From: a virus
Taxonomy: Duplodnaviria > Heunggongvirae > Uroviricota > Caudoviricetes
Length of the DNA stretch: 64,000 nt
Strand: one strand, 5' to 3'
IMG/VR virus record: IMGVR_UViG_2718218360_000008
How positions within the stretch are numbered: the stretch's first letter is position 1; each line of letters begins with the position of its first letter. The position numbers were made by a program. Below are positions 12,601 through 18,600 of the stretch, one piece after another.

Positions 12601-15600
12601 TGAAAAATGCGGTTTGCTCACACGGGCGGATAACACGAAATCCTGCGAACTGGCCAAAACCTGAGTGATATAAAAGTAAAACCCCGTTTGTTAGCCAGCA
12701 GGGGGTTTTGTGTTTCCTGACTCCGGAAAAGTCAAAGGAGAAAGTGTGTTTGATTTTAGCAAACTGATTCGGAGATTGAGTGATGGCTGAAAAATTATCC
12801 ACCTGGAAGTTCATTCTTATCTGGCTGGTGTTTGTGATTATGGTCTTCCGGTTATTTCATCGGTCAGATACGCTGGTGGTGAAATGAACCGCGTACTGTC
12901 GTGGTCATCATTGCCCTGCTGGTGGCCTGTGGTGCGCTTAGTCTGGGGGCTGAATCATTACCGTGATAACGCCATCACCTACAAAGCGCAGCGCGATAAA
13001 AAAGCCAAGGAGCTGGAGCTGGCAAACGCAACCCATTACTGATATGCAGGTGCGCCAGCGCGATGTTGCTGCGCTCGATGCAAATACTCAAGGGAATTAG
13101 CTGATGCGAGAGCTGAAAATGAAACTCTGCGTGCTGATGTTGCCGCTGGTCGTAAGCGCCTGCGGATCAACGCCACCTGCTCCGGTACCGTGCGTGAAGC
13201 CACCGGCACCTCCGGCGTGGATAATGCAACCGGCCCCCGACTGGCAGACACCCGCTGAACGGGATTATTTCATCCTCAGAGAACGGTTGATGACAATGCA
13301 GAAGCAGCTGGAAGGGGCACAGGACTATATCCGCACTCAGTGCCTGAACTAAGTTTTGCGGATGCGCCGTATCGTCGCTGTATTCCCTCATTAACAGAGA
13401 CCGCAGCCCGACAGGGAGACTCCTCTGCGCGAGTGTGCGGGGATAATCAAAAACGATACACACCGGGGTTTACCGCGTTAACGGAGCGCGGCGTTGTCCC
13501 CTCATAGTCGCTGGTCCGGTGCGATGGTGGAAGAAACCGGACTACATTACAAATGATAACCATTATCATTTTGCGGGTCCTCCTGGTGGGGTGGGCCTGA
13601 ACACGGGGCGGGCGGCGCGGAAAAAGGCGCATTTTTTGATTTTTATGGCACCATCACCACCAGTGTAAGTTATTGATATATAGAAAAATAAAATTTTTAG
13701 TGTCGAATCTGGTTGTTTTTTGTTCATCACTGGTGTGTGTTTACATAATTTTCAGGGGGAGTTATGGATCGTGAATTAAAAAATCTGCATCTGAATATTT
13801 CCCAACTGGCCCGCATTATCCGGTGCTCATCGACAGACTGTTGCGGCTCGGGTAAAAAACATAAGCCCAGCCGGTGGTCATGAGAGCAATCTCAAACTGT
13901 ACCGACTGACAGATATCCTTGCCGAGCTGATGAAAGCTCCTCTGCCTGTAGATAACGAGGAAATGGATCCTCATGCGCGTAAAGCATGGTACCAGTCAGA
14001 ACGTGACCGACTGAAATTTGAGCAGGAAACTGGTCAGCTTGTGCCAGTCAGTGATGTCAGGCGGTCCTTTTCTGTCGTGGTGAAAGCGATAGTTCAGGTA
14101 CTGGAAACCTGGCCTGACCGGCTGGAGAGGGACAGGGGGTGGACCGCATCACAACTGAATGAAGTACAGATTGTGGTTGATGAGATCCGCGACACACTGG
14201 AAAAGGCAGTCATTGACTGTTGTGATGAGGCCGATATGTGAATCAGGTGAACGAGAGCCATAGCCGCGCATCCGATATCTGGCGCGAAGTGGCCTCGCTG
14301 TTTCGCCCACCCAGCCGGTTACCAGTAGCGGAAGCCATCAGGCGTTATATGCGGGTTCCACGGGGAGCCAATACTTCCGGTCCGTGGGAGTCATCGCTGA
14401 CGCCCTATATGATTGACCCCATTAATACATTATCAGCCCGTGAATATGACGCGGTGGTGTTTGTGGGACCTGCGCGAACCGGGAAAACCGAAGGGCTGAT
14501 TGATGGCTGGATTGTGTACGGCATCATCTGTGATCCGGCGGATATGCTGGTGGTGCAGATGACTGAGACGAAGGCGCGTGAGCATTCCAGAACGCGTCTT
14601 TCCAGGACGTTTCGCCACAGTCCGGAGGTCAGCAAGCGCCTCAGTCCTTCCCGTAATGACAACAACGTCCACGATAAAATGTTTCTTGACGGCTCCTTCC
14701 TGAAGATTGGCTGGCCGTCGATCACCGTCTTTTCCTCTTCGGATTACCGTCGTGTGGCGCTGACGGATTATGACCGTTTCCCTGAAAACGTGGACGGGGA
14801 AGGGGATGCCTTCACGCTGGCCTCAAAGCGTACCACCACCTTTATGTCCTCGGGGATGACCCTGGTCGAGAGTTCACCGGGGCGGGATATCACCGATACC
14901 AAATGGCGTTGTGGTGGCGCACATGAGGCACCGCCAACAACGGGTATCCTGTCACTGTATAACCGGGGAGACCGCCGCCGGTGGTACTGGCCGTGTCCGC
15001 ACTGCGGGGAATATTTTCAGCCGGTGATGGATAACATGACCGGATACCGGAATAACCCGGATTTTGTGGCTGCCGGTCAGGCTGCCCGTCTGATGTGTCC
15101 GCATTGTCGCGGGCTGATTGCCCCTGAGCAGAAACGCGAACTGAATAACCAGGGGATCTGGCTTCGTGAAGGTGAACGGGCGGCGGCGGACGGCAGTATC
15201 ACCGGAACGCCACGAAACTCCCGGATTGCGTCATTTGGATGGAGGGGCCAGCTGCGGCGTTTCAGACCTGGGAACAACTGATTTTTAAACTGCTGGCGGC
15301 AGAAGAAGAGTATGAGCGAACCGGCAGTGAAGAGACCCTGAAAGCGGTGGTGAACACCGATATCGGACGACCCTATCTGCCCCGTTCAGCCACGGAACAG
15401 CGTAAAAGTGAACTGCTTGAACAGCGTGCCGAGCCGTTTCCCCGGCGATCTGTGCCGGATGGTGTGCGTTTTATTGAGGCAACGGTTGACGTACAGGGCG
15501 GTAAAAATCGCCGTTTTGTTGTGCAGATCACCGGATACGGAGAGCAGGGGGAACGCTGGATTGTTGATCGCTACAACATCCGGCATTCACTGCGCTGCAG

Positions 15601-18600
15601 TCCCAACGGTGAAAGTCTGCCGGTTGATCCGGCGGCATATCCGGAGGACTGGGATTTGTTGCTGACGGATGTGTTCCATAAAACATGGCCGCTGGCTTCT
15701 GATCCGGATGTGCGCATGCGTCTGATGGCCATGGCGGTGGATACGGGAGGGGAAGCCGGGGTGACAGATAACGCCTATCGTTTCTGGCGTCGTTGCCGGA
15801 GTGACGGACTGGGCAACAGGGTGTTTCTGTTCAAGGGGGATGGACTTCGCCGTGACAGGCTGATTAACCGAACCTTCCCGGATAATACCGGCAGAAGTGC
15901 CCGCCGTGCCAGAGCCAGTGGCGATGTCGCGCTGTGGCTGGTTCAGACGGATGCGTTTAAGGATCGTGTAAATAATGCCCTGTGGCGTGACACACCAGGG
16001 CCGAACTATATCCACTTTCCCGACTGGCTGGGGCGGTGGTTTTACGATGAGCTGACCTATGAAGAGCGCGGCAGTGACGGAAAATGGCGAAAACCGGGCA
16101 GGGGCGCTAACGAAGCGTTTGACCTGCTGGTTTATGCGGATGCGCTTGCCGTTCTGCATGGTTACGAAAAGATCCGCTGGCCCTCCGCACCGGACTGGGC
16201 ACAGCGGGAAACGTGGCTCGTCTTCCCGCAGGAGCGTTCTGGTGAAACGGTATCCCGGAACTGACGGCCGGGGCAGAAAAACGCCGTCGCCGGAAGAAAA
16301 AACTGCGGACGGAGCGTGCGGAAGATAATCCATGGATAACATCAGGAGGCTGGTTGTGAGCACAGAAGAAGCCAGAGAAATGATACAGCGGTACCGTGAA
16401 GCGGAAATGGCCGTACTGGAGGGAAAGTCTGTCACCTTCAACGGGCAGCAACTGACGCTGGAAAGCCTTTCTCAGATCCGCGCCGGACGTCAGGAGTGGG
16501 AACGCAGGCTTGCCGCGATGGTGAGCCGCAGGCGGGGAAAACCGGGATTTAAACTGGCGAGGTTTTAATGGCAATTATTGATGATGTGATCGGCGTGTTT
16601 TCCCCCGGGTGGAAAGCAGCCAGACTGCGTTCAAGGGCGTTAATCATGGCCTATGAGGCGGTGAAACCGACCCGGACACATAAAGCCCGGCGGGAAAATC
16701 GCTCTGCTGATCAGCTCAGTAAATACGGTGCGGTTTCCCTGCGGGAGCAGGCCCGTTTTCTGGATATCAATCATGACCTGGTGATTGGTGTGTTTGACAA
16801 GCTGGAAGAGCGGGTGATTGGTGCCAGGGGAATTATTGTGGAGCCTCAGCCATTACGAAAAAACGGGGAAATGGCGGCTGAGCTGGCTGCGGATATCCGC
16901 CGTTTGTGGGCTGAATGGTCCGTGAGTCCGGATGTGACAGGGCAGTATACCCGTCCTGTGCTTGAACGTTTACTGCTGCGGACCTGGCTGCGGGATGGTG
17001 AAGTGTTTGCGCAGATGGTCAGTGGTGCGGGAAACGGTCTGGAACGGACAGCGGGAGTGCCATTCTGGCTTGAGGCGATGGAGCCGGATTTTGTTCCCAT
17101 GCGCACTGATGAATCCGCCGGACTGAATCAGGGGGTTTTTCTTGATGAGTGGGGAAGACCGAAAAAATATCTGGTTTATAAAAATTATCCGGTCAGCGGC
17201 CGGCAGAGTGATACGAAAGAAATCGCTGCCGGAAAAATGATCCACCTGAAGTTCACTCGTCGTCTGCATCAGACGCGAGGCTCATCCATGTTATCGGGGG
17301 TGCTGATGCGGATCAGTGCCCTTAAGGAGTATGAGGATGCGGAACTGACAGCGGCGCGTATTGCTGCGGCGCTGGGACTGTATATCCGTAAAGGTGACGG
17401 ACAGGACTATGAAGATCCGGGGATCAAAGAGACCGAGCGGGAAGTCCATATCACCCCGGGTATTATTTATGACGATTTGCGCAAGGGCGAGGATATCGGC
17501 ATGGTCAAATCTGACCGTCCCAATCCCAACCTTGAAACTTTCCGCAACGGCCAGTTGCGTGCAGTGGCAGCAGGCAGTCGTCTGAGTTTTTCCAGTGCGG
17601 CGCGTAACTATAACGGCACCTACAGCGCCCAGCGGCAGGAGCTGGTCGAGTCCACGGATGGTTACCTGATCCTGCAGGACTGTTTTATTGGCGCGGTAAC
17701 CCGCCCGGTGTACCGGACATGGCTGAATATGGTGGTTGCGGCAGGTCTGCTGAAAATTCCGGCGGATGTGGAGATGAAAACGCTATATAACGCGACGTAT
17801 TCCGGTCCGGTGATGCCGTGGATCGACCCGGTTAAGGAAGCTGAAGCCTGGAGAATTCAGATCCGGGGTGGTGCAGCGACAGAATCTGACTGGGTGCGTG
17901 CCGGTGGGCGCAATCCGGATGAGGTCAAACGTCGCCGCAAGGCTGAAATTGATGAAAACAGCAGACTGGGGCTGGTCTTTGATACTGACCCCGTCAACGA
18001 CAAAGGAGGCAACAGTGCCGGAACTGAACGACAGTATCAGCGCGACACCGAAAGCCAGCATGAAGAATAAATCCTGGTTCAGGATGCAAGCTGGGGGGCC
18101 GGGTGACGCGGATATTTATATTTATGACGAGATTGGTTTCTGGGGAGTTACCGCGAAGCAGTTTGTCAGCGAACTGAATGCACTGGGTGATATCACCCAC
18201 ATTAATCTCCATATCAATTCACCGGGTGGCGATGTCTTTGAAGGCATCGCCATTTTTAATGCCCTGAAAAATCAGGGGGCGACCATTACCGTGTATGTGG
18301 ATGGCGTTGCCGCCTCGATGGCATCTGTGATTGCGATGGCCGGTGATACGGTCATTATGCCGGAAAATGCCTTCATGATGATCCATAAGCCATGGGGATT
18401 CAGTGGCGGGGATGCTGAGGATATGCGCAGTTATGCCGATTTGCTGGATAAAGTCGAATCGGTACTGTTGCCAGCCTATGCGCAGAAAACCGGAAAAACC
18501 ACCGATGAAATTGCCGCCATGCTGGCGGATGAAACCTGGATGTCCGGTGCCGAATGTCTGGCACACGGATTTGCTGACCAGGTGACACCCGCTGTTGAGG

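What the first reader, a model, noticed from the sequence alone, without database searches (positions are those of the whole stretch)
13764..16264. Packaging genes in unit B carry frameshifts different from those in unit C
Unit B has a 1-bp insertion in Nu1 (near 13810) and a 1-bp deletion in terminase A (near 15235). Unit C has an intact Nu1 but a different 1-bp deletion in terminase A (near 63119). Each copy is broken at different sites, so neither encodes a complete terminase as written.
Basis: seen in the sequence. Interest (0 to 1): 0.5.

Follow-up and report, generated by a model that had tools for sequence, protein, structure and literature searches.

The report
Terminase frameshifts are probable assembly errors
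The single-base breaks in the phage DNA-packaging genes are really in the sequence as written, but they look like leftover sequencing and assembly errors in repeated prophage DNA rather than genuine gene inactivation, so the finding is ordinary.

Summary
That break creates the stop at 16264; the true gene end is 16359.

They are unlikely to be biological:
- Over 15.9 kb (13551-29446), unit B differs from one E. coli O111:H8 prophage by 0 substitutions and 13 one-base indels, 12 of them deletions.
- B and C differ over 2.1 kb by 4 indels and no substitution.
- Half of the 20 deletions scored sit in homopolymers of 3 or more bases.
- Unique DNA in the same window (33000-40000) is base-perfect against another strain, including frameshifted genes that strain shares.
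- No copy in 508 complete E. coli genomes carries the unit C deletion.
- Undoing 3 bases in B and 1 in C gives proteins 100% identical to alleles seen on at least 1000 contigs.
- Other public "complete" assemblies show the same late region in worse condition.

Best reading (about 0.85): residual consensus errors in repeated prophage DNA. Both units most likely encode an intact lambda-type packaging module. Reads or unit-specific PCR would settle it.

The parts
13353..13763 (+). Intergenic region between Rz and the small-terminase analog of unit B. Its position suggests it holds cos, which was not tested. It carries a private A5->A4 at 13690-13693.
   Evidence: the reference copies and unit C have A5. 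Gene order comes from the annotations.
13764..14241 (+). Unit B small-terminase analog (DUF1441 family, in the Nu1 position). As written it is frameshifted at codon 16.
   Evidence: deleting one C restores a 158-aa protein identical to WP_000373407.1, which matches PF07278 at E = 2e-49.
13810..13812 (+). CCC run. Every other copy examined that covers the site has CC.
14238..16359 (+). Unit B terminase large subunit (gpA family, with ATPase and nuclease domains). It is 2122 nt as written instead of 2124 and is split into three frames.
   Evidence: restoring one T and one C gives a 707-aa protein identical to WP_001077625.1. Pfam matches are PF05876 (residues 45-308) and PF20454 (residues 330-648).
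15234..15236 (+). T3 run where the other copies have T4. This is the first TerL frameshift in unit B, at codon 333.
16254..16256 (+). C3 run where intact copies have C4. It creates the false stop at 16262-16264.
   Evidence: The same C3 occurs only in two visibly error-laden assemblies.
62333..62809 (+). Unit C small-terminase analog (DUF1441), intact at 158 aa.
   Evidence: The exact protein is on at least 1000 contigs.
62806..64000 (+). Unit C terminase large subunit, 5' part only because the window ends here. As written it stops at 63129.
   Evidence: restoring one G gives a 398-aa prefix identical to the 707-aa reference.
63116..63121 (+). GGTGTG where the other copies have GGTGGTG. One G is missing at TerL codon 105.
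   Evidence: None of 717 copies in 508 complete genomes has this allele.
16568..18070 (+). Unit B portal gene, intact at 500 aa. It shows that the module is otherwise the common functional allele.
   Evidence: The exact protein is on at least 1000 contigs.

Best explanation
The frameshifts are residual base-calling or consensus errors of the assembly, not mutations in the bacterium.

The underlying DNA is two near-identical lambda-type packaging modules belonging to tandem prophages next to the ompW attachment site. Each module runs: probable cos region, DUF1441 small-subunit analog, gpA-type large terminase, a 70-aa W-position gene, portal. Both modules most likely encode intact proteins.

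The sequence here is repeated, both within the window and typically several times per EHEC genome. In such regions reads from different copies cannot be placed uniquely, so one-base indel errors survive polishing. These are mostly dropped bases and often fall in short homopolymers. Unique DNA nearby gets cleaned.

Shown here: the indel-only pattern, its confinement to repeated DNA, its near-privacy to this sequence, and exact restoration of common alleles.

Inferred: the sequencing and polishing history. No reads are available.
For: 1. Indel-only divergence. Unit B 13551-29446 (15.9 kb) against one contiguous prophage of O111:H8 7-58 72A shows 0 substitutions and 13 one-base indels, 12 of them deletions. 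Unit B against unit C over 13300-15432 shows 4 indels and 0 substitutions. If indels made up no more than 20% of real mutations, 13 out of 13 has probability below 1e-9.

2. Homopolymer context. Ten of the 20 deletions scored lie in runs of 3 or more bases, against 18% of bases in the background (p = 0.001).

3. Not gene-specific. The same kind of lesion hits the unit B lysozyme, Rz, DUF2190 gene, T, tape measure, I and J, and also intergenic sites.

4. Internal control. Window 33000-40000 has no differences from O157:H7 BB24-1. That stretch includes the DUF4765 and DUF1076 genes, which are annotated as frameshifted in BB24-1 and YB14-1 too. So inherited frameshifts are shared between strains, whereas the terminase ones are not. 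In unit C, 40400-64000 has only one 1-bp indel, at 63119.

5. Privacy.
- None of 717 copies in 508 complete genomes has the 63119 allele.
- Seven other loci, including three short-read assemblies, have wild-type run lengths at all five sites.
- The 347-aa, 341-aa and 39-aa products are absent from a collection of about 15 billion proteins.
- The repaired 707-aa TerL and the 158-aa DUF1441 protein are each on at least 1000 contigs.

6. Exact repair. Undoing 3 bases in B and 1 in C gives 100% identity to WP_000373407.1 and WP_001077625.1.

7. Mixed-read signature. All five lysozyme deletions in unit B (12215-12385) fall on sites where the two lysozyme alleles present in the window differ. They lie next to a junction at 12068-12072 that was found in no complete genome, phage record or GTDB representative.

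8. Precedent in other assemblies. The same late region in RM12367-C1 has 72 mismatches and 54 gaps in 4.5 kb. In 7.1_Anguil it has 191 mismatches and 131 gaps in 2.9 kb. Both share the C3 at the 16254 site, which fits a systematic homopolymer undercall.

9. Literature. Long-read assemblies retain mainly homopolymer-length errors, and these often persist in repeats after short-read polishing (PMC8812927 abstract). Such errors pseudogenize genes (PMC12007338 abstract).
Against: - No reads are available, so every inference is comparative.
- The 63119 deletion is the only one-base indel in 23.6 kb of unit C and is not in a long homopolymer. On its own it could be a real mutation.
- Its 107-aa product exists as a RefSeq protein (WP_187703345.1). 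That record may or may not come from this same assembly.
- Genuine frameshifts in this very gene family do occur. An A6->A5 in the DUF1441 gene is present in many short-read assemblies.
- Unit A, which is also repeated at 97% identity, is nearly clean. So being a repeat does not by itself predict the error density.
- One or two complete-genome records gave an identity of at least 99% to one of the indel-bearing probes. I could not resolve which site matched.
Confidence: 0.85

Rival explanations
1. The frameshifts are genuine, independent mutations. On this reading both tandem prophages are packaging-defective. Unit B lacks both the small subunit and the TerL nuclease domain, and unit C TerL is cut inside the ATPase domain. 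Their DNA could be packaged only by a terminase supplied in trans by another resident lambdoid prophage with the same cos specificity.
For: - Defective lambdoid prophages with frameshifts are well documented in EHEC.
- In O157 Sakai, Sp4 has a disrupted nu1 gene, yet its DNA is packaged, probably by the Sp14 terminase (PMC2669165).
- Real frameshifts in the DUF1441 gene exist in short-read assemblies.
- EHEC genomes carry a median of 2 and up to 10 copies of this module, so complementation is plausible.
- Unit B lacks its own early region in this sequence. If that structure is real, selection on unit B would be relaxed.
Against: - There are zero substitutions alongside 13 indels over 15.9 kb.
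- The indels also fall in non-coding DNA and in nearly every long late gene of unit B.
- They are private to this sequence.
- The truly inherited frameshifts in the same window are shared base-for-base with other strains.
- The lysozyme deletions sit exactly on inter-allele polymorphic sites. Mutation does not do that; consensus building from mixed reads does.
Confidence: 0.08
2. A mixture. Most unit B indels are assembly errors, but one of them is a real mutation. The best candidate is the lone G deletion at 63119 in the otherwise clean unit C.
For: - Unit C has 28 substitutions and only this one 1-bp indel over 23.6 kb compared with SCPM-O-B-7615. That ratio is compatible with natural divergence.
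- The deletion is in a GGTGGTG repeat rather than a long homopolymer.
- The exact 107-aa product is a RefSeq entry.
Against: - The allele is absent from 717 copies in 508 complete genomes.
- No contig on record encodes the 107-aa product.
- It lies in the part of unit C that is identical to unit B. That is exactly where unresolved-repeat errors are expected.
- Apart from the indel itself, 62000-64000 has no difference from RM12581.
Confidence: 0.06
3. Programmed recoding. Ribosomal frameshifting or transcriptional slippage would read through the breaks and produce full-length terminase.
For: Three of the four coding sites lie in short homopolymers. Lambdoid phages do use programmed frameshifting elsewhere, in the G/T tail chaperone (established knowledge).
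Against: - Recoding sites are conserved. Here every other copy examined has a single uninterrupted ORF at these positions.
- The two units differ from each other at the sites.
- Runs of 3 bases are too short for efficient slippage (established knowledge).
Confidence: 0.01

Closest known systems
Residual indel errors in repeat regions of long-read bacterial assemblies (Polypolish paper PMC8812927; Kastor paper PMC12007338)
   Same: One-base, mostly homopolymer-length errors that fragment genes. They are concentrated where short reads cannot be placed uniquely. Nearby unique sequence is clean, and repair restores the common allele.
   Different: The platform and polishing history of this sequence are unknown. 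About 40% of the deletions scored are not in homopolymers; in the lysozyme they fall on sites that differ between repeat copies. That points to mixed-copy consensus building as well as homopolymer miscalls.
Defective prophage pool of E. coli O157 Sakai (Sp4 with disrupted nu1, packaged by the Sp14 terminase; PMC2669165)
   Same: Lambdoid EHEC prophages, several near-identical late regions per genome, and an apparently broken terminase in one copy. Trans-complementation would be the likely way out if the lesions were real.
   Different: The Sakai defects are IS insertions, deletions and frameshifts in a finished Sanger genome. Here the lesions are indel-only, private to this sequence and accompanied by no substitutions.
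Phage lambda terminase, gpNu1 and gpA
   Same: Gene order is small subunit, large subunit, W-position gene, portal, downstream of the lysis genes. The large subunit has the gpA ATPase and gpA endonuclease domains.
   Different: The small subunit is a DUF1441 protein. No Nu1-family match was reported at E <= 0.001. The head genes are a ClpP-like protease and capsid fusion rather than lambda C/Nu3/D/E.

Membership tests
Assembly/consensus error in repeated DNA | Differences from the closest independent copies are indels without accompanying substitutions | tested here: met
   Unit B has 0 substitutions and 13 indels over 15.9 kb. Units B and C differ by 0 substitutions and 4 indels over 2.1 kb.
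Assembly/consensus error in repeated DNA | Deletion bias and homopolymer enrichment | tested here: met
   Twelve of the 13 indels are deletions. Ten of the 20 deletions scored lie in runs of 3 or more bases, against an 18% background (p = 0.001).
Assembly/consensus error in repeated DNA | Errors confined to multi-copy sequence, with adjacent unique sequence clean | tested here: met
   Window 33000-40000 has no differences from BB24-1. In unit C, 40400-62000 has no 1-bp indel. The indels lie in the late regions duplicated in the window. Caveat: unit A, also a repeat, has only 2-3.
Assembly/consensus error in repeated DNA | Lesions private to the assembly; repair gives a common allele | tested here: met
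   The exception is the C3 at 16254, which is shared only with two assemblies of obviously poor local quality.
Assembly/consensus error in repeated DNA | Reads do not support the indels | not testable with these tools
   No read data are available.
Genuine pseudogenes of a defective prophage | The lesion is inherited, meaning present in related strains or independent assemblies | tested here: not met
   The 63119 allele is in none of 717 copies. Wild-type run lengths are seen in 7 other loci, 3 of them short-read assemblies. By contrast, the DUF4765 and DUF1076 frameshifts in the same window are shared with other strains.
Genuine pseudogenes of a defective prophage | A mutation spectrum that includes substitutions, as expected for relaxed selection | tested here: not met
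   There are no substitutions in 15.9 kb.
Lambda-type terminase, gpA large-subunit family | An N-terminal gpA ATPase domain plus a C-terminal gpA endonuclease domain | tested here: met
   On the repaired, reference-identical protein, PF05876 scores E = 2e-82 and PF20454 scores E = 6e-84.
Lambda Nu1 small-subunit family | Sequence membership in the Nu1 family | tested here: not met
   The Pfam scan returns only DUF1441 (PF07278) at E <= 0.001. Its role as small subunit rests on position and on some depositors' annotations.
Programmed frameshift / recoding site | The frame change is conserved in homologs | tested here: not met
   Homologs have one uninterrupted 707-aa ORF. That exact protein is on at least 1000 contigs.

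The most novel reading that the evidence does not exclude
Unit B was really hit by a deletion-biased mutational process that produces no substitutions. That would mean some mechanism peppers one prophage copy with single-base deletions, inactivating almost every late gene while leaving neighbouring DNA untouched. On this reading the terminase breaks are part of a targeted prophage-disabling event.
Probability: 0.02. Interest if true: 0.7.

Novelty: not a real feature. Interest (0 to 1): 0.06.

Why it matters
The main value is as a caution. If the sequence were taken at face value, two prophages would be scored as packaging-defective and about ten late genes as pseudogenes. That would distort estimates of prophage mobility and of how virulence genes transfer in an EHEC-type strain.

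The window supplies its own yardstick for separating real from artefactual frameshifts. Inherited frameshifts, in the DUF4765 and DUF1076 genes, are shared base-for-base with other strains. Artefactual ones are private, indel-only and clustered in repeats.

If the breaks were real after all, they would add one more example of the already described defective prophage pool, with trans-complementation of terminase.

Tried and rejected
- Programmed frameshifting was rejected because all homologous copies have uninterrupted ORFs.
- I tried to identify the source assembly and failed. The A|B junction 40-mer is absent from GTDB representative genomes. No complete E. coli genome or phage record spans the junction. 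The frameshift products are absent from the protein collection, apart from the 107-aa fragment, which is in nr only with no contig on record.
- A concatenated 61-mer probe was only partly informative. Neighbouring pieces were joined into one place, so identity was averaged over them.
- A concatenated 40-46-mer probe, meant to hit only exact indel alleles, was compromised by chance extension across fragment boundaries. It still revealed the C3 allele in two other assemblies.
- I tested whether the non-homopolymer deletions in the tail genes always sit on A/B polymorphic sites. That holds for some (27011; 29136 is adjacent to one) but not for others (27906, 29194, 29332). The mixed-read signature is therefore clear only in the lysozyme.
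- I did not map cos or analyse terminase binding sites.
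Full report
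WHAT THE WINDOW IS. A self-comparison shows three related stretches. Positions 1-12072 (tail genes, unit A) match 23497-34437 at 97.2% identity. Positions 12085-15432 (lysis and packaging genes, unit B) match 60648-64000 (unit C) at 97.9% identity with 23 gap openings. Searches against 5,426 complete E. coli genomes and against phage records place all of it in lambdoid prophages of EHEC-type E. coli (O157:H7, O111:H8, O145:H28, Stx-converting phages). Reference annotations give the following order for unit B: lysozyme, Rz, an intergenic region, a DUF1441 protein, the terminase large subunit, a 70-aa protein, portal, a ClpP-like protease and capsid fusion, then tail genes. Unit B is followed by moron genes and a remnant of ompW. 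Unit C then starts with an integrase. Tandem prophages at ompW also occur in O157:H7 YB14-1.

OBSERVATION. The three reported indels are real features of the sequence as written.
- Unit B has CCC at 13810-13812 where other copies have CC. This is codon 16 of the DUF1441 gene.
- Unit B has T3 at 15234-15236 where other copies have T4. This is TerL codon 333.
- Unit C has an intact DUF1441 gene and GGTGTG at 63116-63121 where other copies have GGTGGTG. This is TerL codon 105.
The true end is 16359.
Removing one C and restoring one T and one C in unit B, and restoring one G in unit C, gives proteins 100% identical to WP_000373407.1 (158 aa) and WP_001077625.1 (707 aa; 398-aa prefix for the truncated unit C). 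The repaired large subunit carries the gpA ATPase and gpA endonuclease domains. The small gene matches only DUF1441.

THE PATTERN OF DIFFERENCES. From 13551 to 29446 (15.9 kb), unit B differs from a single contiguous prophage of O111:H8 strain 7-58 72A by no substitutions and 13 one-base indels, 12 of them deletions. The sites are 13689, 13810, 15233, 16253, 20437, 23132, 24841, 27011, 27906, 28324, 29136, 29194 and 29332. Substitutions begin only at 29447, in the variable part of J and the tail fibre. Units B and C differ over 13300-15432 by four indels and no substitution. If indels were at most one fifth of natural mutations, 13 of 13 has probability below 1e-9. Ten of the 20 deletions scored lie in runs of 3 or more bases, against 18% of bases in the background (p = 0.001). 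The lesions are not aimed at the packaging genes. They also break the unit B lysozyme (five deletions), Rz, the DUF2190 gene, T, the tape measure, I and J (three within 200 nt), and they fall in intergenic DNA too. Unit A has two such deletions in J.

INTERNAL CONTROL. The unique stretch 33000-40000 has no differences from O157:H7 BB24-1. It includes a DUF4765 gene and a DUF1076 gene that are annotated as frameshifted in BB24-1 and YB14-1 as well. Inherited frameshifts in this window are therefore shared with other strains, while the terminase ones are not. Unit C from 40400 to 64000 differs from strain SCPM-O-B-7615 by 28 substitutions, one 2-bp indel in a divergent patch, and a single one-base indel, the one at 63119.

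PRIVACY.
- No copy among 717 in 508 complete genomes has the 63119 allele.
- Seven other loci, including three short-read (Logan) assemblies with an uninterrupted 707-aa TerL, have the wild-type run length at all five sites.
- The 347-aa, 341-aa and 39-aa products of unit B, the 891-aa J fragment of unit A and the 199-aa fusion at 20127 are absent from a collection of about 15 billion proteins.
- The repaired TerL, the DUF1441 protein and the portal are each on at least 1000 contigs.
- The 107-aa unit C fragment exists only as WP_187703345.1 in nr, with no contig on record. It may derive from this same assembly.
- The 103-aa ORF downstream of the unit B break is found on 98 contigs. Those contigs carry other lesions or are cut by a contig end: an A6->A5 in many short-read assemblies, an A7 in CP027344, and a nonsense change in one. 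None of the copies examined has the CCC.

SIGNS OF MIXED-READ CONSENSUS AND A DOUBTFUL JOIN. Unit A's tail-fibre region runs at 12068-12072 directly into a lysozyme gene lacking its first 14 nt. No complete genome, phage record or GTDB representative spans this junction. The next 1.2 kb carries about 16 one-base indels. All five lysozyme deletions lie on positions where the two lysozyme alleles present in the window differ. That is what consensus building from reads of two different copies produces. Mutation would not produce it. In the tail genes this signature is only partial.

THE SAME THING IN OTHER PUBLIC ASSEMBLIES. Two complete RefSeq genomes that share the C3 at the 16254 site have this late region in much worse condition. 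RM12367-C1 has 72 mismatches and 54 gaps in 4.5 kb, with TerL, the W-position gene and portal all annotated as frameshifted. 7.1_Anguil has 191 mismatches and 131 gaps in 2.9 kb. CP027344 splits TerL at yet another place. The literature describes this directly. Residual errors of long-read assemblies are mostly homopolymer-length errors, and they often remain in repeats after short-read polishing (PMC8812927, abstract). Such errors pseudogenize genes (PMC12007338, abstract).

INTERPRETATION. The best-supported reading (about 0.85) is that the frameshifts are assembly errors and that both units carry an intact lambda-type packaging module.

Rivals:
- Genuine independent mutations, with packaging supplied in trans by another resident prophage. 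This is shown for Sakai Sp4, whose nu1 is disrupted and whose DNA is probably packaged by the Sp14 terminase (PMC2669165). About 0.08.
- A mixture in which only the 63119 deletion is real. About 0.06.
- Programmed recoding. About 0.01, contradicted by uninterrupted ORFs in all homologs.

If the lesions were real, unit B would make a 39-aa small-subunit stub and a TerL lacking its nuclease domain. Unit C would make a 107-aa TerL stub ending soon after the GPARTGKT motif, which I read as the Walker A motif from the translations.

LIMITS.
- No reads are available, and the sequencing platform is unknown.
- The rest of unit C lies outside the window.
- One or two records with identity of at least 99% to indel-bearing probes could not be resolved.
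- cos was not mapped.

Noticed in passing
window 12040-12090 (junction at about 12068-12072): The end of unit A's tail-fibre region is joined directly to a lysozyme gene missing its first 14 nt, so unit B has no early region. No complete E. coli genome, phage record or GTDB representative spans this junction. It is either a misassembly or a strain-specific rearrangement.
   Followed up: partly
window 12215-13251: The densest cluster of one-base indels in the window, about 16 in 1.2 kb, destroys the unit B lysozyme and Rz. All five lysozyme deletions sit on sites where the two lysozyme alleles in the window differ, as expected from a consensus built on mixed reads.
   Followed up: yes
window 35231-38618 (minus strand) and about 34480-35050: The DUF4765 and DUF1076 (NleG-like) genes are frameshifted here and in O157:H7 BB24-1 and YB14-1. 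The window has no differences from BB24-1 over 33000-40000, so these are genuine inherited pseudogenes. They serve as a useful contrast to the terminase indels.
   Followed up: partly
L005 and L006 (about 60 nt downstream of the gene start at 317 and 300); equivalent to the A6 run about 30 nt downstream of window 13812: Many short-read assemblies carry a real A6->A5 frameshift in the DUF1441 small-terminase analog. CP027344 has A7 at the same run, and L007 has a nonsense change near the gene start. This gene is truly inactivated in some lineages, at a different site from the one in the window.
   Followed up: partly
L015 (NZ_CP031345.1, RM12367-C1) and L016 (NZ_CP076232.1, 7.1_Anguil): These RefSeq 'complete' genomes hold the same prophage late region at close to raw-read quality, with 54 gaps in 4.5 kb and 131 gaps in 2.9 kb. 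Terminase, portal and protease are fragmented.
   Followed up: partly
window 8822, 9271 (unit A gene J, 6208-9685): Two one-base deletions outside homopolymers split the J tail-tip gene of unit A into three ORFs. Both sit on sites that vary between J alleles of different prophages.
   Followed up: partly
window 44950-45001, 49930-50112, 50816-50990, 56779-57034: Rfam finds prophage-borne small RNAs in unit C: DicF, isrK, C4 antisense RNA, sok (next to hokD), STnc100 and AgvB (anti-GcvB).
   Followed up: no
window 56634-56693: Rfam gives a weak, partial tRNA match (37 bits, model positions 7-64) at a spot where a near-identical genome is annotated with tRNA-Met. ARAGORN calls no tRNA anywhere in the window.
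   Followed up: no
window 20438-20441 (A4 run): An A5->A4 change fuses the DUF2190 gene with the next head-tail gene into a single 199-aa ORF (20127-20726). That product is not present in the collection of about 15 billion proteins.
   Followed up: yes
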